Assembly: GCA_048940925.1 (NCBI GenBank)
Contig: JBHLOC010000052.1
Coordinates: 1-33,137, forward strand
Direction of reading: 5' to 3'
Length of the DNA stretch: 33,137 nucleotides
DNA from: Promethearchaeota archaeon
GTDB lineage: Archaea > Asgardarchaeota > Lokiarchaeia > Sigyniarchaeales > SOKP01
The position numbers were made by a program, and so were the translations under genes. Below are positions 3,942-21,659 of this stretch, piece by piece (the stretch's first letter is position 1; each line of letters starts with the position of its first letter). The notes beneath the pieces are model-generated. The model had not been told where the DNA came from and did not search any database. It saw only the letters and a list, made by a program, of their open reading frames with translations.

Positions 3942-5774
3942 TTATTCAATATTACCGAAATATTTTTGGATTAAATTATTCAAATCTAACCAATTATCTT
4001 GATCGGAACAATTTTCTTCTATGTCTTCAATTAAATCTCTATAATTTATATCAAATTCCGTAACTAAAGCTTTTAATTTCCTCTCAAGCAAATTTATATT
4101 TTCTTTTACAATGAGTACAAATACAACATCTTTCGTATTATTTAAATTAAATATTATTGTTCGGTCACCGTGATTTATTGATTTAATTTGAGTTTCTCCC
4201 TTAAGAATTGCTTTTAAAATTGTCATTAACCCTATAATTCCTCCAGAAATTAAAGATGAATCATTAAATCCCTCCAAATTATTAAAGGCATAATCATATA
4301 GCGGTATACCAGATTTATAAATTATATAAAGATGGATTAACACGTCTCTCCATTCTTTTAATGGTAAGCAAATTCTAAATACAGAGTAATTTTCTTTTTC
4401 TTCTGAATCAATATGAATTTGACCCTTATGTAAATCTATTATTTGTTTCGAAAATGAAATTTCTTGATATATTTCATCTCCAGGAGATTGATACAGTTTA
4501 CCCTTTATCCCTATTTCTCCGAAATTATTAACATTTTTTAGATTAATTAAAATATCCTGATCATTTGAATTTCTCCTTATGTAAGAGATAATTTCATTTA
4601 TTACTAGCCTAATCCTCAACTTATCTACTTCAGAATATAAATCTTCAGAAAGATCTATATTAGTTTTTATCTTTCGTGCCTCTTCTTTATCATTTAATGA
4701 ATTGATTAATTCCAATATAATTTCAGACAAACTTTCAGTTTGTTTATTTAAAATCAATTGATCAGATTCCATCTTAGAAATGTTGACTATTTTTCCTACC
4801 AAATCTAAAGATTTTTCCCCCTCATTTTTAATCAATTCTAAGAGTTTTAATACATCATCATCTAATTTATCTCTATAAGAATTTAAAATGATATTAGTAG
4901 CGTTTGATAATACATTTATTGGATTTTTTAATTGTTCTGAAGCTTTACTAGTCATTTTTTTTTTCATGTTATCGAGATCCCTTAACCTCCTATTTTCTTC
5001 TCGGATAATTCTTTCTGCGAGTATTTTTTCAGTGATATCCTGCAACATAACCTGCACAAGTTTTTTATCTCCTATTTTAAATATCGAAAAAAATGCTTGT
5101 ACCCACGATTTTTTGTCATAAGTTCTAAATTCCATGACTTCGCTTAAACCATACTCGAGAACATTTTGAAAAACTTCATTATAATCATCTTTCTGATTTT
5201 CATTTAATTGGATAATATCTGAGAATGGAATATTTTTTAAATCATTCTTCTGTTTATTTAGATATAATTCAGCAGAACTATTACAATCATATACACGCTG
5301 TTGAGAATCTAATAAAAGTATTGAATATGGAAAGCTTTCCACTAAATTCCGATATTTTTCTTCTGATTCTCTTAAAATTTTTTCTGTTCTTTTCCATTTA
5401 GTTATATCTCTTCCAACCTTTATGATTTGCTCAATATTACCATCTTTGTTCTTAATTGGATAGGCTAAAAATTCTATATATAATTCTTCTTCATTAACAT
5501 GATGAATATGAGTAGATTTATTAAAATTGCCAGTCCTTAACACATCCTCAACGGGGCATTGGCATTCTGGAGGTTTACAAATGGATTTTTTCCCATGCGT
5601 TAACTTAAAACATTTGTTTCCTATAATTTGCTTTTTGTTTAAACCATATTTTAAACAAAAAGTTTCATTCACATCTTTGATTGATAAATCTTTATCTAAG
5701 ATCATAATTTCATCAAATATAGAATCTAAAATTATCCTAAAACGTTCATTTTCTTGTTTTATACTATATTCCAT
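3942..5774 (-). CDS. PAS-PAS-degenerate HisKA/HATPase (pseudokinase) fused to a C-terminal longin-like domain
   Basis: Two PAS/PAC units ending RDIT and QDIT; H-box SEQLKNP lacks His; N/G boxes lost; tail LIHLYIIYKSGIPLY...LISGGIIGL...VVFVLIV...LKALVTEF has the longin pattern. Confidence 0.8.
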   Translation of the reverse strand: MEYSIKQENERFRIILDSIFDEIMILDKDLSIKDVNETFCLKYGLNKKQIIGNKCFKLTHGKKSICKPPECQCPVEDVLRTGNFNKSTHIHHVNEEELYIEFLAYPIKNKDGNIEQIIKVGRDITKWKRTEKILRESEEKYRNLVESFPYSILLLDSQQRVYDCNSSAELYLNKQKNDLKNIPFSDIIQLNENQKDDYNEVFQNVLEYGLSEVMEFRTYDKKSWVQAFFSIFKIGDKKLVQVMLQDITEKILAERIIREENRRLRDLDNMKKKMTSKASEQLKNPINVLSNATNIILNSYRDKLDDDVLKLLELIKNEGEKSLDLVGKIVNISKMESDQLILNKQTESLSEIILELINSLNDKEEARKIKTNIDLSEDLYSEVDKLRIRLVINEIISYIRRNSNDQDILINLKNVNNFGEIGIKGKLYQSPGDEIYQEISFSKQIIDLHKGQIHIDSEEKENYSVFRICLPLKEWRDVLIHLYIIYKSGIPLYDYAFNNLEGFNDSSLISGGIIGLMTILKAILKGETQIKSINHGDRTIIFNLNNTKDVVFVLIVKENINLLERKLKALVTEFDINYRDLIEDIEENCSDQDNWLDLNNLIQKYFGNIE

Positions 5775-5793: not shown

Positions 5794-7356
5794 TTATACT
5801 GTTATTTTTTTTCTATTATTTTTTTGTTCCTCATAAACAATGGGATTTAAAAGTTCAAATAAAATGATAAAATTACTCCCCTTAGTATAATCACCCTTAA
5901 CTTTATTTTCTATCCAGATTTTCCCATTATAGCTTTCTATTATCTTTTTTACAAGCGATAAACCTATTCCTAAACCTTTAATTGAATCAACTCTCTCTTT
6001 GTATCCTCGCTTGAAAACTAATTCTTTCAATTGATCTGGAATTCCTCTGCCATTATCAATAAATTCAATTTTAAGATATGTATTCCTATTTTCTTGAACT
6101 TTTGATATTCTGATAATTATCTCAATTATTGAATTATCATTATGTCGGACACAATTTAATAAAATATTTTCAAATAAATCAATTAAAAGATTATTTCCTT
6201 TAATGTAATAAGGTTTTTCGGGTGCGCTTAATTGGATGTTAATCTTTTTTTCTTGAAACATTGTAGTAATATATTTGATCGATTGTCTTAAGATCGGATA
6301 AACTTCCATTCGTGTAAATTTTCCTTTATCTGCTTCAATTTCAGACAGTTTAATAACGTTTGATATTAATTTCCCTGCTCTGTTAATTTGTTCTTCAGCA
6401 ACCTGGATTAATTCTTCAAAATTTTCAATTTTTATGGATTCATTTTGACATAATGGTAATAGTTCTATAAATGAAACAAAAAATTGAAAAATATTGTTAA
6501 TATCATGAACAAAGATATCTTTATACAAGTTGATTTGATTATAAGCATCTCGATATCTTTTTTCTGACTCTTTCAACATTTGCTCTGATTTTTTCCGTTC
6601 AGATATATCCCTTATTATATCTATAACTGCTGGTTGTCCTTTAAAGTTCAAAATTGGAGTACAACTATATTCAAAATGCTTAGTTTCAGTTTTATTTGGG
6701 TTAAAGTAAATTAATTCATACCTTCTGTTGACATCGTAATTATTGGATAATATGTTAAATGAACAGTGCTCGCATATACTTTTATTACTTGTTAAAATGT
6801 TATAACATTCTTTTCCAATTTGATGACTTCCAAACATCTCTTTGGCCTTTTTGTTCATATAAAATATTTTCAAATCTTTTGATATAACAATAATTGAATC
6901 ATTAGTGTTTGATAAGATTAAATTCAATTCTTCTTCAGATTCCTTGATTTGTTGATTAATTGTCATGCGTTTCGTGATATCTCTTCCAAGCTTAACGATT
7001 TGTTCAATATTGCCATTCTTATCCTTTATTGGATAAGCTAGAATCTCTAAATATATTTCTTTTTCATCAATATGATGACTATGAACTGATTCCGCAAATT
7101 TACCCGTTTTTAAAACATCCTCAACTGGACATTTACATTCTGGAGGTTTACAAATAGAATTTCTCCCATGAGTTACTTTGTAACACTTATTTGCTATGAC
7201 ATTTTCCTTATCGACGTTATATTTTAAACAAAAAGATTTATTCACATCTTTTATTGAAAAATCTTTATTTAAAATCATTATTTCATCTGAAATGGAATCA
7301 AAAATTGATATCAAGTTCTTTCCTTTTTGATTATAATTGTCTGGCAATTCATTCAC
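5794..7356 (-). CDS. Cytoplasmic PAS-PAS sensor histidine kinase
   Basis: H-box FVHDINN, N-box ENILLNCVRH, G1 DNGRG, G2 GLGIGL, G3 GSNF; two PAS domains; no TM segment. Confidence 0.92.
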   Translation of the reverse strand: MNELPDNYNQKGKNLISIFDSISDEIMILNKDFSIKDVNKSFCLKYNVDKENVIANKCYKVTHGRNSICKPPECKCPVEDVLKTGKFAESVHSHHIDEKEIYLEILAYPIKDKNGNIEQIVKLGRDITKRMTINQQIKESEEELNLILSNTNDSIIVISKDLKIFYMNKKAKEMFGSHQIGKECYNILTSNKSICEHCSFNILSNNYDVNRRYELIYFNPNKTETKHFEYSCTPILNFKGQPAVIDIIRDISERKKSEQMLKESEKRYRDAYNQINLYKDIFVHDINNIFQFFVSFIELLPLCQNESIKIENFEELIQVAEEQINRAGKLISNVIKLSEIEADKGKFTRMEVYPILRQSIKYITTMFQEKKINIQLSAPEKPYYIKGNNLLIDLFENILLNCVRHNDNSIIEIIIRISKVQENRNTYLKIEFIDNGRGIPDQLKELVFKRGYKERVDSIKGLGIGLSLVKKIIESYNGKIWIENKVKGDYTKGSNFIILFELLNPIVYEEQKNNRKKITV

Positions 7357-7413: not shown

Positions 7414-8124
7414 CTATTTTAATGACTCCTTAAAGTTTAAAAACTTTTTCTCATTAAATATCTCCTTCTCTTTATGATAAAACATACAACTTTGTTTTTC
7501 TAGGCCAGTCACATAAATATTTTTTTTAGCACACCAATAAAGACCTGTTGGATTAGGATTGTAAGCATATCTACAGTCTGAAGATATAAATTCTTTTTTT
7601 TCTTCTCTCCAATTAAAATATTCAAACATTCTTTCGCAAAAAGTTTCAGAATTTTCATCAAACGGATAACTCATTATACAATGCGTTCCAATTACCGTTT
7701 TCCTTAACTTTACAGGAATAAATCCTAATTTACTGAAAAATCTTAATTTATCTTGTTTGCAGCTTACCACTAATAAAAAAATATAAAATTTTTTATATTC
7801 TCTAATTTCATTTTCAATAATTGATTTAATTAATTGCGAACCTAATCCGATTCTTCTGCAATTTTTTCTAATTTCAATTGTATCTAAGTAAAAAAGAGAG
7901 ATATCATTATATATAGATAGAAAGATTAAATTTAGACAGCCAACAATCTTATTAAATTCATTCAAAAGGTAATGAGTCTTATTTAGATATCCAAAATACC
8001 AATTTTCTTCCAAACCAGAATTCTCTATATATCTTGATGGTATCTCATCTTTTCGATATATTTTGTATTTGTAATCTTGGATTAAAAAGTTCCCCGGATT
8101 TCCTTTATGGGTATCTAATATAAT
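7414..8124 (-). CDS. GNAT N-acetyltransferase with C-terminal three-Cys microdomain (start uncertain: ATT 8124/ATA 8121 or TTG 8013)
   Basis: Acetyl-CoA motif A IRKNCRRIGLGSQLI and FFSKLGF; frame open upstream to a GAGGAG site at 8133-8138; tail SDC...WC...SCMFY. Confidence 0.8.
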   Translation of the reverse strand: MILDTHKGNPGNFLIQDYKYKIYRKDEIPSRYIENSGLEENWYFGYLNKTHYLLNEFNKIVGCLNLIFLSIYNDISLFYLDTIEIRKNCRRIGLGSQLIKSIIENEIREYKKFYIFLLVVSCKQDKLRFFSKLGFIPVKLRKTVIGTHCIMSYPFDENSETFCERMFEYFNWREEKKEFISSDCRYAYNPNPTGLYWCAKKNIYVTGLEKQSCMFYHKEKEIFNEKKFLNFKESLK

Positions 8125-8239: not shown

Positions 8240-8698
8240 TTATAACAATTTAACCAAATTGCCCATTTTATCAAAATTGTCAGTCTTTGTTAATGTCGAA
8301 AGATATTCTCCTAATTTATATATTGTTTGATTTAATTCAAATAATACAACCCCTAAATTCAAATAAATTGGGAATAACACTGACATCATAACTTCATTTG
8401 TTATTGATTGAAGAATAATCATAAATCCGTTATCATCTATTTGATTACCCGCTTGGATTTTAATTTGCTTCAAACAATTTTTATTTTTTATAATAGTAAG
8501 GCCATTTTCAGCCAATGAAATTACTCCCGCACATATAGCGGCTATAGACTGAAAATAATCTCCATCCTCATTAAAATTAGCAATATCGATTGCAATAATA
8601 AAACCATCTTGGGTAAACAGCATAGAGTTAATAATACCTGTTTGTTCTCTCAACTTTTTTAAAATATCATAAATCTCTTTTTCAGTTATATTAAACAT
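8240..8698 (-). CDS. Roadblock/LC7 (MglB/LAMTOR-like) protein
   Basis: SMLFTQDGFIIA, IAAICAGVISLAE, LNLGVVLFEL; overlaps the GTPase stop codon. Confidence 0.88.
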   Translation of the reverse strand: MFNITEKEIYDILKKLREQTGIINSMLFTQDGFIIAIDIANFNEDGDYFQSIAAICAGVISLAENGLTIIKNKNCLKQIKIQAGNQIDDNGFMIILQSITNEVMMSVLFPIYLNLGVVLFELNQTIYKLGEYLSTLTKTDNFDKMGNLVKLL

Positions 8699-9341
8699 CT
8701 AACACAGACACCTCATCTTTATGTACTATTTTTTCCGAATTTCCCTTTAAAATAATTTTAAGTACAGCAATAACTGCATCTTTTATTCCAATATTACATT
8801 TAGCGGACCCTTTATACACTTCCTCACCTATTAAATTCTTAATCATTTCAATGTCATGGTAATCGCTTCTATCAGATTTATTAGCTATTATTTTCATAGG
8901 AATATTGTATCCTAATGAGATTTTTGTTTCTTCTAGAATAACTAATGCGTTACCTATATTAGATAAATCACAACCATCTATTAACATAATAACACCATCA
9001 CTACCTTTTGCTAATATTTTTCTAACTGAAGCAAATTGCATCTGTCCAGGACATCCTTTTAGTTCTAATTCTATTATATGCCAACCAGAGTATTCATCTT
9101 TGTCTCTCATATATTCAATTTTACTCATGATTAAGCCATTTGTTTCAAAATTTAAGTTTGGTCTAACCCAAACTAATCTTGCTAAATCAAAACCTGTAGT
9201 AGTATGCGTTTTATCATCATCATATGGGATATTTAATTCTTTTTCCACAGAAATTGCTTTATCATCAAGAGTATGAATTAAAGTCGTTTTACCTGAATTA
9301 AAAAATCCAGTGACAAAAATTTTAATCTTATTATTTAACAT
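8691..9341 (-). CDS. Small GTPase, MglA/conservon CvnD-like (ATP_bind_1 type)
   Basis: G1 GFFNSGKT, switch I KTHTTTGFD, G3 GCPGQ, G4 NKSD, G5 SAK; adjacent to a roadblock gene. Confidence 0.88.
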   Translation of the reverse strand: MLNNKIKIFVTGFFNSGKTTLIHTLDDKAISVEKELNIPYDDDKTHTTTGFDLARLVWVRPNLNFETNGLIMSKIEYMRDKDEYSGWHIIELELKGCPGQMQFASVRKILAKGSDGVIMLIDGCDLSNIGNALVILEETKISLGYNIPMKIIANKSDRSDYHDIEMIKNLIGEEVYKGSAKCNIGIKDAVIAVLKIILKGNSEKIVHKDEVSVLDV

Positions 9342-9708: not shown

Positions 9709-10179
9709 ATGGCAAATTATAAACAATTGTTGGATATATCAAATGCAACACTAGTTGCGATGGGAAAAGCTATGATAAACATGGGATTAAATATCCCCTT
9801 AGTATGGAATGAATGTGCAAATGTGTTCGAAAATAGTGCAAAAAATCTTTTAAAAGACGCTGGTATGGTAATTGAGGGTGATAATGTTAAGTCTATTACT
9901 GAAGATTTTACTAAAAAGGTGAAAGATTTAGGTTTCTGCCAAAGAGCTAATATTTTAGAACTCACTGACGAGAAACTTGTCATTGATCTTGGAGAATGCG
10001 TCTTTGCTTCTGCCACCAAAGTCTTTAGAGGTAATGATCGAGATTTTATTCCTCCATGTCCATTTATGTCGATGCTGTACAGCACAATCACTGAAAAAAC
10101 AGGTAAAATAGGGTATATCGAAGCCTGTCAATGGAAACCTGAACAAAATACATCAATTTTTACCGTAAGGTTAGAATAA
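9709..10179 (+). CDS. Stand-alone V4R / methanogen-output-domain-like protein with conserved Cys
   Basis: LVIDLGECVFA...PPCPFMSML...IEAC...SIFTVRL topology typical of V4R/MetOD1-like folds. Confidence 0.65.
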   Translation: MANYKQLLDISNATLVAMGKAMINMGLNIPLVWNECANVFENSAKNLLKDAGMVIEGDNVKSITEDFTKKVKDLGFCQRANILELTDEKLVIDLGECVFASATKVFRGNDRDFIPPCPFMSMLYSTITEKTGKIGYIEACQWKPEQNTSIFTVRLE

Positions 10180-10198
10180 TTTAGGAGTGATGACAAAT

Positions 10199-18831: not shown

Positions 18832-19389
18832 TTGCGGACCATGATTGGTAAGGATAAGTTCGAAGATGGTAGAAAGTACGATACAAAATTATACGATGAT
18901 CAATTCATTCATTTTGCGGATAATTCTTTAATGGGAGTATTAATAATTCAAAGAGGATACTTAAAATATTTTAATCAAAAATTCACAGAGATATTTGGTT
19001 ATACTAAAGAAGATATCTTAAAATGGAAAAAAAGAGAATTTTATAAGATTGTTCACCCGGATGATTTACCTAATTTAGTGAAGAATTTCAAGATTGAAGA
19101 TGACCGAAAGACAGTGTCAGTTAAATTTCGAGGAGTATCCAAAACCAAAAAAATCATTAACATTGAAAATTATAATTGTAGAATAGAATATAATAATAAA
19201 ACCGCAATCCTATCTAGTTATGTTAAGATATCTCCAAAAGAAGAAGAAGTTTATACTCCAAAAATATATACAATAAAAACAGGAAAAAAAATCTTAATAG
19301 AATATAAACCTAAAATAATTGAGATATTAAAAAGTCAAGGCATAAAATTTGATATTATTAAGTCTTGTACATACCGAGAAGAAAACTAA
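18832..19389 (+). CDS. Single-PAS-domain protein (copy A)
   Basis: NSLMGVLIIQ...YFNQKFTEIFGYT...IVHPDD PAS motifs; ungapped paralog at 21102-21659. Confidence 0.88.
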   Translation: MRTMIGKDKFEDGRKYDTKLYDDQFIHFADNSLMGVLIIQRGYLKYFNQKFTEIFGYTKEDILKWKKREFYKIVHPDDLPNLVKNFKIEDDRKTVSVKFRGVSKTKKIINIENYNCRIEYNNKTAILSSYVKISPKEEEVYTPKIYTIKTGKKILIEYKPKIIEILKSQGIKFDIIKSCTYREEN

Positions 19390-19548
19390 TCATTCTTTTT
19401 CTCTAATCTCTTCAAAATGAATATTATAATGTTTTTCGGGATCAATAATTTTATATTTTATAAGTTTTCTAGGGATAATTATTACATAATCTGGACCCAT
19501 TGACGCTAATTTGTGATCTTCTAAAGTAAAGATTTTCTTCTTTACCAT
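19390..19548 (-). CDS. 52-aa AbrB/MazE/SpoVT-like small protein MVKKKIFTLEDHKLASMGPDYVIIIPRKLIKYKIIDPEKHYNIHFEEIREKE (not in the ORF track)
   Basis: ATG-TGA ORF abutting the PAS stop; KxxxxGxxhhhhIP swapped-hairpin pattern; conserved second copy at 20937-21072. Confidence 0.72.
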   Translation of the reverse strand: MVKKKIFTLEDHKLASMGPDYVIIIPRKLIKYKIIDPEKHYNIHFEEIREKE

Positions 19549-19867
19549 AATTTAAAAGGGCAAAAATAACTTAAAATATTTTTTGTTATGTTTTATAGAA
19601 ATTAAAATACCCTCTCTAAAGGTGACAATATATTGGATTCTATTAATTTATTTTACGAAAATGGATAAATTATTGAACTAAAGCCTTCCAATTGGAAATA
19701 CTGATGCTAAAAATCTTAATAAAAATTTGATATCTCTTATTATTTCAATTAAATAACAGATTCAATTTTCATATTAAAGGAACTTACATTTATGTAAAAT
19801 GAAATTATTTAGATATATTTAAATAAAATAAGAAAAACATAATAGTATCTAATAAAGATTTATAGAG

Positions 19868-19891
19868 ATCCCTATAAGAATCCCTATAAGA
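19868..19891 (+). repeat. Perfect 12-bp tandem repeat ATCCCTATAAGA x2 in a promoter position
   Basis: Read directly; sits just 3' of a TTTATA box and about 50 bp before the 19944 start. Confidence 0.8.
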
Positions 19892-19943
19892 ATATTATTA
19901 TTAGATGATAAAAATAAGACAAGAAAGCTAAATGTGAAAAATT

Positions 19944-20384
19944 ATGGTAAAAGGAAAATTACTAGTAGGACCAATATTAGGAATTATCGGAGGTGGCTTA
20001 CTTCTTATTGTTGGATTCTTGTCCTTCGGAGTCCAAGCAGGAGTAGAACCAACACTAGCACTATTAACACTCACATGGGGGGACGTTGGTTTTGATCCGA
20101 TCCTCTTTACTATCAGTTCTATTCTTACCTTAGTATTTGCTGCATTAGCGATTATTGGTGCTATTCTGGGATTTGTTGGTAAGAGAGTCCCAGGAGGAGC
20201 TCTAATGTTAATAGGCGGTATTGGGGCAGTTGTTGGTTATTTTGTCCCTGTAGGAGTAATTGATTTACCTCTTCCATATCCAGATGTACCTATCTCATTA
20301 GTTTACCCTGGTTTATTCTGGGTTCCAGGATTTTTAATTTTAATTAGCGGAATCCTAGGTTTAGCCTTAAAGGCAAAGTCTTAA
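19944..20384 (+). CDS. Gly-rich four-TM membrane protein
   Basis: Four hydrophobic segments with GxxxG-like motifs. Confidence 0.85.
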   Translation: MVKGKLLVGPILGIIGGGLLLIVGFLSFGVQAGVEPTLALLTLTWGDVGFDPILFTISSILTLVFAALAIIGAILGFVGKRVPGGALMLIGGIGAVVGYFVPVGVIDLPLPYPDVPISLVYPGLFWVPGFLILISGILGLALKAKS

Positions 20385-20936
20385 AAGCTACCCATTAGTG
20401 ATTTTGCTAATTTAAATATTTTTTTTTCTAATGTGCATTATTAAAAACTAGATTAAACTTGAAGTTGAATTTTATAAAGGATTTATAATCTTATTCTGAT
20501 TACTTTTTGGTTTATGATGGTTTTAATATCTCCTTATTGAATCACCGATATTATACAATACATATTTTGTATTTTAACTCTTAACCTTATTCCGAATGAA
20601 GAATGTTCATGATTTTAATGATATTAATCATTTTTATAATAATAACCTATCAAGAAAAATACGGGATAATCATCAAACGTTGAATTTAAACTGCCCAAAA
20701 ATAAAATTTTTGCGAAAGCGATAGATCTATTAATGACAACTCTTCTAAGAAAAAGAAAATGATAGTTTTTGTAGAAAAATCGTTAGAAGACTCTTTTGAT
20801 ATATTTATTATAATTACATTTATATTCATTCATTAAATTAAGGATTTCTTTTCAAATTTATAATTTAATTAGAGGAAAATCTAATTCTATAAAACACAAT
20901 GCGAAATATTATAAGTAATTTTTATTGAATTAAAAC

Positions 20937-21072
20937 ATGGAAGAGAATAGAAAAATAATTACATTACAAATTGGCATCAATAGGTCCAGATTATGTAGTA
21001 ATTATTCCTCGAAAATTAATTAAGCACAAAATTATTGATCCCGAAAAACAATACAATGTTCATTTTGAATGA
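20937..21072 (+). pseudogene. Frameshifted second copy of the AbrB-like small gene
   Basis: MEENRKIITL, then an apparent 8-nt deletion relative to copy 1, then KLASIGPDYVVIIPRKLIKHKIIDPEKQYNVHFE* in another frame (TTG at 20971 could give 33 aa). Confidence 0.65.
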
Positions 21073-21101
21073 GTTTTTTAATTTAGATCGTAAAATTGAA
21101 G

Positions 21102-21659
21102 TTAGTCTTCTTCTCGATATGAGTAATTCTTTATAACACAAAATTTCAGGTTATTATCTTTTAAGATTTTGACTACTTCGGGATTATACTCTAGAAATAT
21201 TTTCTTTTTTGTGTTTATTACTATTGTCTTAGGAATAAACTCAGTATCTATTTCTGGAGATTCTTTCACATAACTAGCTAGATACGCTGTTTTATTATTG
21301 TACTCAATTTTACATGTGTAGTTTAAAATATCAATTAGCTGATTGTTTTTAGTTATTCCCCTATATCTTGCTGTTATAGTTCTTTTATCATCTTCAACTT
21401 TTAATTTTTTTAATATCTTTGGCAAATCCTCCGGATGAATAATCTTTTGAAATTCCCTTTTTTCCCACTTTTGAACTTCTTCTTTAGTATAGCCAAATAT
21501 TTCTAAAAATTTTTGATTAAAATATTTTATATATCCTCTTTGAATTATTAGAATGCCCATTGAAGAATTATCAACAAAATGAATGAATTGATCATCATAT
21601 AATTTTGTATCGTAATTTCCACCTTCTTCAATGTTATCCTTACTAATCATAGTCCGCAA
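21102..21659 (-). CDS. Single-PAS-domain protein (copy B, inverted)
   Basis: Same length (185 aa) and ungapped alignment to 18832-19389, e.g. YDTKLYDDQFIHF and IEYNNKTA. Confidence 0.88.
   Translation of the reverse strand: MRTMISKDNIEEGGNYDTKLYDDQFIHFVDNSSMGILIIQRGYIKYFNQKFLEIFGYTKEEVQKWEKREFQKIIHPEDLPKILKKLKVEDDKRTITARYRGITKNNQLIDILNYTCKIEYNNKTAYLASYVKESPEIDTEFIPKTIVINTKKKIFLEYNPEVVKILKDNNLKFCVIKNYSYREED

What the first reader, a model, noticed from the sequence alone, without database searches (positions are those of the whole stretch)
3942..5774. Predicted-dead histidine kinase whose output is a longin-like domain
Seen: compared with the intact kinase at 13854-16898, SHELRTP becomes SEQLKNP (His to Glu, codon at 4935-4937), the N-box NILLNAIK becomes EIISYIRR, and G1/G2 are missing. 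The 610-aa frame is intact and ends in a ~130-aa longin-like domain (about 3942-4350). Known: longin domains act as small-GTPase platforms in eukaryotic GEF/GAP complexes, and pseudokinases such as DivL act as allosteric adaptors. Inference: this protein is a physical bridge from PAS sensing to GTPase control.
Basis: partly seen in the sequence, partly recalled or inferred. Interest (0 to 1): 0.82.

Follow-up and report, generated by a model that had tools for sequence, protein, structure and literature searches.

The report
Dead sensor kinase with longin tail
An Asgard archaeon encodes a bacterial-style sensor kinase that lost its catalytic residues long ago and ends in a eukaryote-style longin domain; its gene travels with a small GTPase and roadblock genes, so it probably passes sensor signals to a GTP switch by binding rather than by phosphorylation, though that binding is not yet shown.

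Summary
Observation confirmed. 3942-5774(-) encodes an intact 610-aa PAS-PAS-HisKA-HATPase-longin protein of an Asgard (Lokiarchaeia-type) archaeon. The phospho-His is Glu (GAA, 4935-4937); the N, G1 and G2 boxes and the ATP lid are gone. This is old, not recent decay: 0 of 70 homologs keep the His, the G1 Asp or the first two G2 glycines. The family is one clade by kinase core alone (SH-aLRT 99.8) and every domain is under purifying selection. [quoted passage not shown] At 13 of 20 genomic loci the gene lies 0.7-5.9 kb downstream of an MglA-like GTPase/roadblock pair; in one genome the same longin is fused to that roadblock. A link to this GTPase is therefore likely but rests on genome context only. 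Longin/two-component fusions in Asgards are published in outline (Liu et al.). I found no paper on this conserved dead family or its GTPase partner. The scan noted this family before on other DNA. It is confined to one order, so probably not ancestral to eukaryotes. New variant of a known kind; interest 0.55.

The parts
3942..5774 (-). Pseudo-histidine-kinase/longin gene, 610 aa (P0001)
   Evidence: Shine-Dalgarno-like AGGTGA 6 nt before the ATG, 19 nt after the stop of the upstream kinase
5397..5744 (-). PAS1 (res 11-126) with a Cys/His cluster (C55, H60, C66, C71, C73); 68% identical to PAS1 of the upstream intact kinase
   Evidence: Pfam; motif in 23 of 26 long family members and in only 4 proteins of the genome, the two pseudokinases and their upstream kinases; 77/113 identical
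5025..5366 (-). PAS2 (res ~137-250)
   Evidence: Pfam PAS_8/PAS_9
4755..4991 (-). HisKA/DHp dimerisation domain (res 262-340), the best conserved part of the family
   Evidence: Pfam E 6.5e-7; mean pairwise identity 0.57
4935..4937 (-). Glu280 (GAA) in place of the phospho-accepting His
   Evidence: E62/K7/D1 and no His in 70 homologs
4362..4742 (-). Degenerate HATPase/CA domain (res 345-471): fold kept, N box eroded (4572-4595), G1 Asp, F box, ATP lid and G2 lost
3954..4349 (-). Longin domain (res ~476-607); conserved ISGGxxG helix and IDHGDR hairpin; no GP motif, no arginine finger
5794..7356 (-). Upstream intact PAS-PAS histidine kinase of another clade (H, N, G1, G2 present), shares PAS1
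7414..8013 (-). GNAT acetyltransferase (HEAT-repeat-fused in other copies of the cluster)
8240..8698 (-). Roadblock RB1, overlapping the GTPase stop; likely cognate MglB-type regulator
   Evidence: Pfam Robl_LC7 E 8.5e-4; directly follows the GTPase in the loci
8691..9341 (-). MglA-like small GTPase (G3 reads CPGQ, lacking the DxxG Asp); candidate target
   Evidence: MglA E 1.3e-4; Sar1 similar
9709..13819 (+). Divergent arm: V4R/Bet3-like gene (my reading, no Pfam hit, not tested), 46-aa Cys microprotein, two roadblocks, coiled-coil protein with a roadblock-like end, HisKA-REC regulator
   Evidence: order conserved
13854..16898 (-). Intact multi-PAS histidine kinase closing the cluster; same broad clade as the ancestor of the pseudokinase

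Best explanation
A non-catalytic, dimeric sensor-scaffold that feeds a sensory signal into the cluster's roadblock/MglA-like GTPase module through its longin domain. SHOWN (sequence, models): it cannot use the canonical His or ATP site; DHp, CA fold and longin are kept under selection; it is gene-linked to the GTPase and RB1. FROM ESTABLISHED KNOWLEDGE: HisKA domains dimerise and relay PAS conformational changes along the coiled coil; longin and roadblock domains form dimeric platforms for small GTPases (PMC10933270). INFERRED: the Cys/His PAS1 senses metal or redox state, or a regulator docks on the DHp; the DHp dimer shifts; the CA remnant acts as a rigid arm that moves the two longins; this sets whether they pair with each other or with a roadblock partner on the GTPase, and so tunes or localises its GTP cycle. 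It is probably an accessory platform (scaffold or exchange-factor-like), not the catalytic GAP, which is more likely RB1.
For: His, G1 Asp and first two G2 Gly absent in 70/70 homologs. No protein with both a canonical H-box and this longin among the best 150 hits in 1.84 billion representatives. One clade on the kinase core alone, 45 vs 48 rows, SH-aLRT 99.8. dN/dS 0.04-0.50 in all domains. CA relaxed and DHp kept: identity 0.39/0.57 against 0.53/0.49 in intact kinases. Longin fold. 13 of 20 loci lie 0.7-5.9 kb downstream of the GTPase on the same strand, 4 more are cut by contig ends. 11 of 151 genomes have both genes, 5 only the pseudokinase, 3 only the GTPase (kin and linked genes are not independent). 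In G010 the same longin is fused to RB1 right behind the GTPase, with no kinase (L083:3384-4250, E 1.6e-49). The genome's third His-less kinase is itself fused to an Arf-like GTPase.
Against: All support for the GTPase link is guilt by association. Four GTPase clusters have no longin in the DNA held (G012 twice, G020, G143 C104); one pseudokinase sits in a cluster without the GTPase (G078); a 1485-aa subfamily lies beside an operon I read as V-type ATPase (G049 C25, G005 C4). The same longin class is a promiscuous tail: 17 hits in this genome, 8 on multi-pass membrane proteins. Some longins have roles unrelated to GTPases (PMC10933270). No GP motif or arginine finger. The DHp is slightly better conserved than the longin (0.565 vs 0.528).
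Confidence: 0.5

Rival explanations
1. The working end is the DHp. The protein regulates the cluster's two-component arm, either binding the phosphorylated HisKA-REC regulator as DivL binds DivK~P, or poisoning an intact kinase by DHp heterodimers as RetS does to GacS. The longin is then a localisation or oligomerisation tag, or the signal runs from GTPase to kinase.
For: DHp is the most conserved domain. PAS1 is 68% identical to that of the adjacent intact kinase, so both may read one signal or pair up. Position H+4 stays Ser/Asn/Thr in 67/70. An intact kinase of the parent clade and a REC protein are in the cluster. Precedents: PMC4211667, PMC8498467.
Against: DHp conservation is expected from homodimer packing alone; putative regulator-docking positions H+7 and H+8 are variable (37% each). 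In G010 the longin stays in the cluster with only a CA remnant (L082:2759-3643) or fused to RB1, without any DHp. Not exclusive of the best explanation.
Confidence: 0.25
2. The longin is a generic Lokiarchaeal sensor output that pairs with other longins or acts on another GTPase elsewhere in the genome; the gene is an optional passenger of the cluster.
For: 17 related longins in the genome on varied N-termini; the subfamily beside the ATPase operon and the clusters without longin.
Against: The linkage holds across three genera and in paralogous copies, and the longin is kept and fused to RB1 when the kinase is lost.
Confidence: 0.2
3. A recently decayed kinase or a chance fusion with no function.
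For: The CA domain is eroding by stepwise lid deletion (41-53 of 70 gapped at the F box) and the gene is patchy (16 of 151 genomes).
Against: Open frames in all loci, dN/dS well below 1, one origin with divergence to about 40% identity, no His-bearing member.
Confidence: 0.03

Closest known systems
Asgard NPRL2-like longin domains fused to two-component domains (Liu et al., bioRxiv 10.1101/2020.10.19.343400, Fig. 5c)
   Same: Longin domain joined to two-component signalling domains in Asgard archaea.
   Different: The text names no catalytically dead kinase and no partner GTPase. This longin resembles Fuzzy/sedlin/AP-sigma more than NPRL2/FLCN and lacks their motifs. The figure is not held, so I could not check whether this exact architecture is drawn.
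DivL pseudokinase of Caulobacter (PMC4211667)
   Same: PAS-DHp-CA scaffold, His replaced, no kinase activity expected; model matches DivL at Z 16.9.
   Different: DivL has Tyr, still binds TNP-ATP weakly and has no longin; here the ATP lid is deleted and the presumed output is a longin.
Actinobacterial conservons / G protein systems (CvnA-D; PMC12236503, PMC4316618)
   Same: Gene cluster joining a histidine-kinase-like sensor, an MglB-type roadblock and an MglA-family GTPase.
   Different: CvnA8 has ATPase and autophosphorylation activity and a C-terminal LPxR motif; the four-gene order has CvnC and no regulator. Here the sensor is dead and carries a longin, and the cluster has several roadblocks, a REC protein and intact kinases.
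Eukaryotic longin GEF platforms (Mon1-Ccz1, Fuzzy-Inturned, TRAPP Bet5-Trs23) and longin GAPs (FLCN, NPRL2, SMCR8; PMC12290439)
   Same: Longin fold; best matches are Fuzzy, sedlin, AP sigma and Sec22.
   Different: 9-19% identity, single longin on a kinase scaffold, no GP motif or arginine finger, and the candidate GTPase is MglA-like, not Rab, Rag or Arf.
Lokiarchaeal roadblock-longin protein (PDB 8yqg, 8yqk)
   Same: Asgard longin that dimerises (entry title); Z 9.3; G010 has a roadblock-longin fusion of this family.
   Different: No sensor or kinase part; weaker match than the eukaryotic longins.

Membership tests
Active HisKA histidine kinase | Phospho-accepting His in the H box | tested here: not met
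   Glu280; 0/70 homologs have His
Active HisKA histidine kinase | N-box Asn, G1 Asp (DxGxG), G2 (GxGxG) and ATP lid | tested here: not met
   Tyr, Gly, absent, deleted; G1 Asp 0/70, first two G2 Gly 0/70, N-box Asn 14/70
Histidine pseudokinase (DivL-like) | DHp-CA fold kept | tested here: met
   Model matches HK853, WalK, DivL
Histidine pseudokinase (DivL-like) | Catalytic loss conserved under purifying selection | tested here: met
Histidine pseudokinase (DivL-like) | No autophosphorylation; binds a phosphorylated regulator or another kinase | not testable with these tools
   needs biochemistry
Longin fold | Five-stranded sheet, order beta-beta-alpha-beta-beta-beta-alpha-alpha, no N-terminal roadblock helix | tested here: met
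   DSSP on the model; Z 12.8-11.4 to longins vs 7.9 to MglB
GAP-type longins (FLCN/NPRL2/SMCR8) | GP motif before strand 2 | tested here: not met
   0/69; feature defined in PMC12290439
GAP-type longins (FLCN/NPRL2/SMCR8) | Arginine finger in the strand 4-5 loop (position from my own knowledge) | tested here: not met
   Arg in that loop in 5/69, none conserved. A conserved Arg538 lies elsewhere, in the strand 3-4 hairpin, and is shared with a membrane-protein longin
Longin GEF platforms (Mon1-Ccz1, TRAPP) | Longin dimer binds a small GTPase and speeds exchange | not testable with these tools
   needs binding and exchange assays
Conservon (AGPS) | cvnA-B-C-D order with CvnC and an LPxR-tailed kinase | tested here: not met
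   Gene order differs, no LPxR tail, REC protein present; no profile search for CvnC was run
Conservon (AGPS) | MglA-family GTPase coupled to an MglB-type roadblock | tested here: met
   G3 without Asp, MglA hit E 1.3e-4, adjacent roadblock; MglA group not assigned by a tree
Asgard NPRL2-like longin/two-component fusions (Liu et al.) | Longin of the NPRL2-like asCOGs fused to two-component domains | tested here: inconclusive
   Fusion yes; NPRL2-likeness weak (GATOR1 entry Z 9.1 vs Fuzzy 12.8); asCOG profiles and Fig. 5c not available

The most novel reading that the evidence does not exclude
An undescribed prokaryotic G-protein pathway in which a dead sensor kinase uses PAS-driven dimer motion to open or close a longin platform that directly sets the nucleotide state of its cluster's MglA-like GTPase: the first signal-gated longin exchange factor or co-GAP with a named archaeal target, and one of at least two independent cases in this lineage where a kinase lost catalysis on being wired to a GTPase module.
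Probability: 0.3. Interest if true: 0.8.

Novelty: new variant of a known kind. Interest (0 to 1): 0.55.

Why it matters
Asgard genomes hold dozens of longins and small GTPases, but no archaeal longin has a known target, and Tran et al. (PMC10933270) note that genome layout rarely reveals the pairs. This family names a candidate pair (longin plus MglA-like GTPase and RB1) in soluble proteins that can be expressed and assayed. If they interact, it shows how a bacterial-type sensor can be rewired to a GTP switch without phosphorylation. Limits: it was found in one order only (16 of 151 genomes; 0 of 160 sampled from other families of the phylum, one from a second family), so it is probably a lineage-specific invention, not a eukaryotic ancestor.

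Tried and rejected
1) Complex prediction of two longins with the GTPase, GTP and Mg: no verdict (0.20 and 0.04; mark 0.32; controls not run). It is no evidence either way. 2) Sequence search of solved structures with the longin alignment gave only weak hits (Bet5 E 0.59-0.76); Pfam Fuz_longin_1 stayed under its cut-off; the fold call rests on structure searches. 3) Papers holding 'Asgard', 'longin' and 'histidine kinase' together: none. PMC10343646 mentions one Lokiarchaeum pseudo-kinase (KKK40347.1, 39 kDa) but no longin; PMC5847659 has no longin. 4) An intact-His ancestor with a longin: not found in three searches. 5) The conserved His535 of the IDHGDR hairpin as a substitute phospho-site: rejected, the motif also occurs in kinase-free longins. 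6) Rab-like GTPase 17978-18523 as partner: only near 4 clusters. 7) Homology to the longin of the Arf-fused pseudokinase: not detected (hhalign 0.2%). 8) Sigma-70 promoter scan: at chance level and not suited to archaea. 9) The tree is the quick IQ-TREE search, SH-aLRT only; dN/dS is Nei-Gojobori with several pairs near saturation; the Fisher P overstates because genes are linked and genomes related.

Full report
1. Observation. The frame 3942-5774(-) is open for 610 aa. Pfam gives PAS, PAS, HisKA (271-337) and a sub-threshold Fuz_longin_1 hit (481-572), and no HATPase_c, whereas both neighbouring kinases score HATPase_c at E below 1e-16. The H box reads SEQLKNP with GAA at 4937-4935. Aligned to intact kinases, the N-box Asn is Tyr, the G1 Asp is Gly, the F box and lid are deleted and G2 has no Gly.

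2. Fold. An AlphaFold2 model of residues 472-610 (pLDDT 81) has the longin order of strands and helices. The top 25 Foldseek hits are AP/COPI, TRAPP and Mon1-Ccz1 chains. The independent wide search ranks Fuzzy (Z 12.8, rmsd 3.3 A, 125 aligned), sedlin (11.9), AP sigma and Sec22 (11.8) above a Lokiarchaeal longin (9.3) and MglB (7.9). A model of 250-610 keeps the DHp-CA fold (WalK CA Z 17.0; DivL 16.9) with the longin joined by about five residues.

3. Family. 70 proteins match kinase core and longin together at E below 1e-56; the next hit is at 1e-13, and those that carry a name are labelled as Asgard archaea, mostly Promethearchaeota. None has the His (Glu 62, Lys 7, Asp 1), the G1 Asp, or the first two G2 glycines. 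A profile search of 1.84 billion representatives gave 15 clusters that span both parts; none with a readable H box has His, and none of the 117 canonical-H-box hits has this longin. On kinase cores alone, 45 members form one branch (SH-aLRT 99.8, quick tree) among intact kinases of the HELKTP type, so His loss and longin gain map to one stem. dN/dS is 0.04-0.50 in every domain. The CA domain is relaxed and the DHp is not: identities 0.39 and 0.57, against 0.53 and 0.49 in intact kinases. N-termini vary: one to many PAS domains, sometimes a receiver. This is a maintained pseudokinase family, not decay.

4. Context. The gene ends a left arm (GTPase, roadblock RB1, GNAT, intact PAS kinase, pseudokinase) that diverges from a right arm (V4R-like gene by my reading, two roadblocks, coiled-coil protein, HisKA-REC), closed by an intact multi-PAS kinase. 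The GTPase lacks the G3 Asp and hits MglA, the hallmark given in PMC4316618. A second copy of the cluster lies on contig C82. Among 151 genomes of the order, 16 have the pseudokinase, 14 this GTPase subfamily and 11 both. Of 20 pseudokinase loci, 13 lie 0.7-5.9 kb downstream of the GTPase on the same strand, 4 are cut by contig ends, 1 is in a cluster without the GTPase, and 2 form a 1485-aa subfamily beside an operon I read as V-type ATPase. In G010 one cluster has RB1 fused to this longin directly behind the GTPase, and another keeps a CA remnant plus longin without DHp or PAS. Four GTPase clusters show no longin in the DNA held. So the longin is the part that stays with the module, but it is optional. 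PAS1 carries a Cys/His cluster and is 68% identical to PAS1 of the upstream kinase.

5. Controls within the genome. 21 of 24 full kinase cores keep the His. The three without are the two longin fusions and a 1124-aa protein on C24 that contains an Arf-like GTPase domain. That second family derives from the other kinase clade, matches in 58 of 151 genomes, and lacks the His in 17 of 19 genes checked. Loss of catalysis thus went with fusion to GTPase-module domains twice. On the other side, this longin class is a common tail here: 17 hits, 8 on multi-pass membrane proteins, so a longin alone does not point to one target.

6. Mechanism. Best reading (0.5): a dimeric sensor-scaffold. PAS input or docking on the DHp shifts the helical bundle, the CA remnant moves the two longins, and they engage the roadblock/GTPase module. 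Dimerisation and relay follow from general knowledge of HisKA proteins; GTPase platforms from PMC10933270; the target is inferred from linkage and the RB1 fusion. A catalytic GAP role is unlikely: the GP motif is absent in 69/69 and no Arg is conserved in the strand 4-5 loop. Rivals: a DivL- or RetS-type role through the DHp (0.25), a generic output unrelated to this GTPase (0.2), decay (0.03).

7. What is known. Liu et al. report many fusions of NPRL2-like longins with two-component domains in Asgards, without the dead kinase or a partner in the text. One Lokiarchaeum pseudo-kinase is mentioned in PMC10343646. Conservons already link a kinase-like sensor, a roadblock and an MglA-type GTPase in Actinobacteria, but CvnA8 is catalytically active and has no longin. 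I found no paper on this family. Earlier notes of this scan describe the same family on other DNA; they are not independent evidence.

8. Verdict. Real, conserved and testable; a new variant of known kinds. The family was found only in this order, nearly all in one family, which limits its bearing on eukaryote origins, and the GTPase link is unproven. Interest 0.55.

Noticed in passing
L096:416-3790 (+) (G000:C24:21415-24789): 1124-aa protein with an Arf-like GTPase domain (148-308), two PAS domains and a His-less kinase tail from the other kinase clade; the flanks of the GTPase look longin-like by eye. Matches in 58 of 151 genomes; His lost in 17 of 19 checked. Noted earlier by the scan on other DNA.
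   Followed up: partly
L083:3384-4250 (-) (G010:C160): Roadblock RB1 fused to the same longin subfamily directly after the GTPase, with no kinase part.
   Followed up: partly
L082:2759-3643 (+) (G010:C139): 294-aa protein with only a CA remnant plus longin; PAS and DHp lost.
   Followed up: partly
L031:8372-12829 (-) (G049:C25); L036:15104-15853 (-): 1485-aa multi-PAS member of the family placed tail to tail with an operon that reads as V/A-type ATPase, away from the GTPase cluster.
   Followed up: no
L038:8004-20000 and L087 (G000:C82): Second copy of the whole cluster in this genome; its HisKA-REC regulator has also lost the His (SSELKRP), unlike the window's copy.
   Followed up: partly
window 7414-8013 (-) and 10187-10327 (+): The GNAT protein's C-terminal end and a 46-aa ORF share a small Cys motif (C-x-Y/F ... 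WC-x-KKNIYVT ... C-x-FY). The GNAT is 199 aa here but 486 aa with HEAT repeats on C82.
   Followed up: no
L032:16202-17101, L068:13805-14680, L071:6318-7208, L075:12631-13533: Several copies of the cluster carry a gene I read as a TFB paralog (zinc-ribbon start; not scanned) next to the pseudokinase; the window's copy has none.
   Followed up: no
L088-L092 (G000 C78, C8, C43, C4, C41): Eight proteins with about 6-12 predicted membrane helices end in a related longin: a possible family of membrane sensors with longin outputs.
   Followed up: partly
window 17154-21659: Rab-like GTPase (17978-18523), two small single-PAS proteins (18832-19389, 21102-21659) and a helical protein (17154-17819) recur together beside the C82 copy of the cluster.
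   Followed up: no
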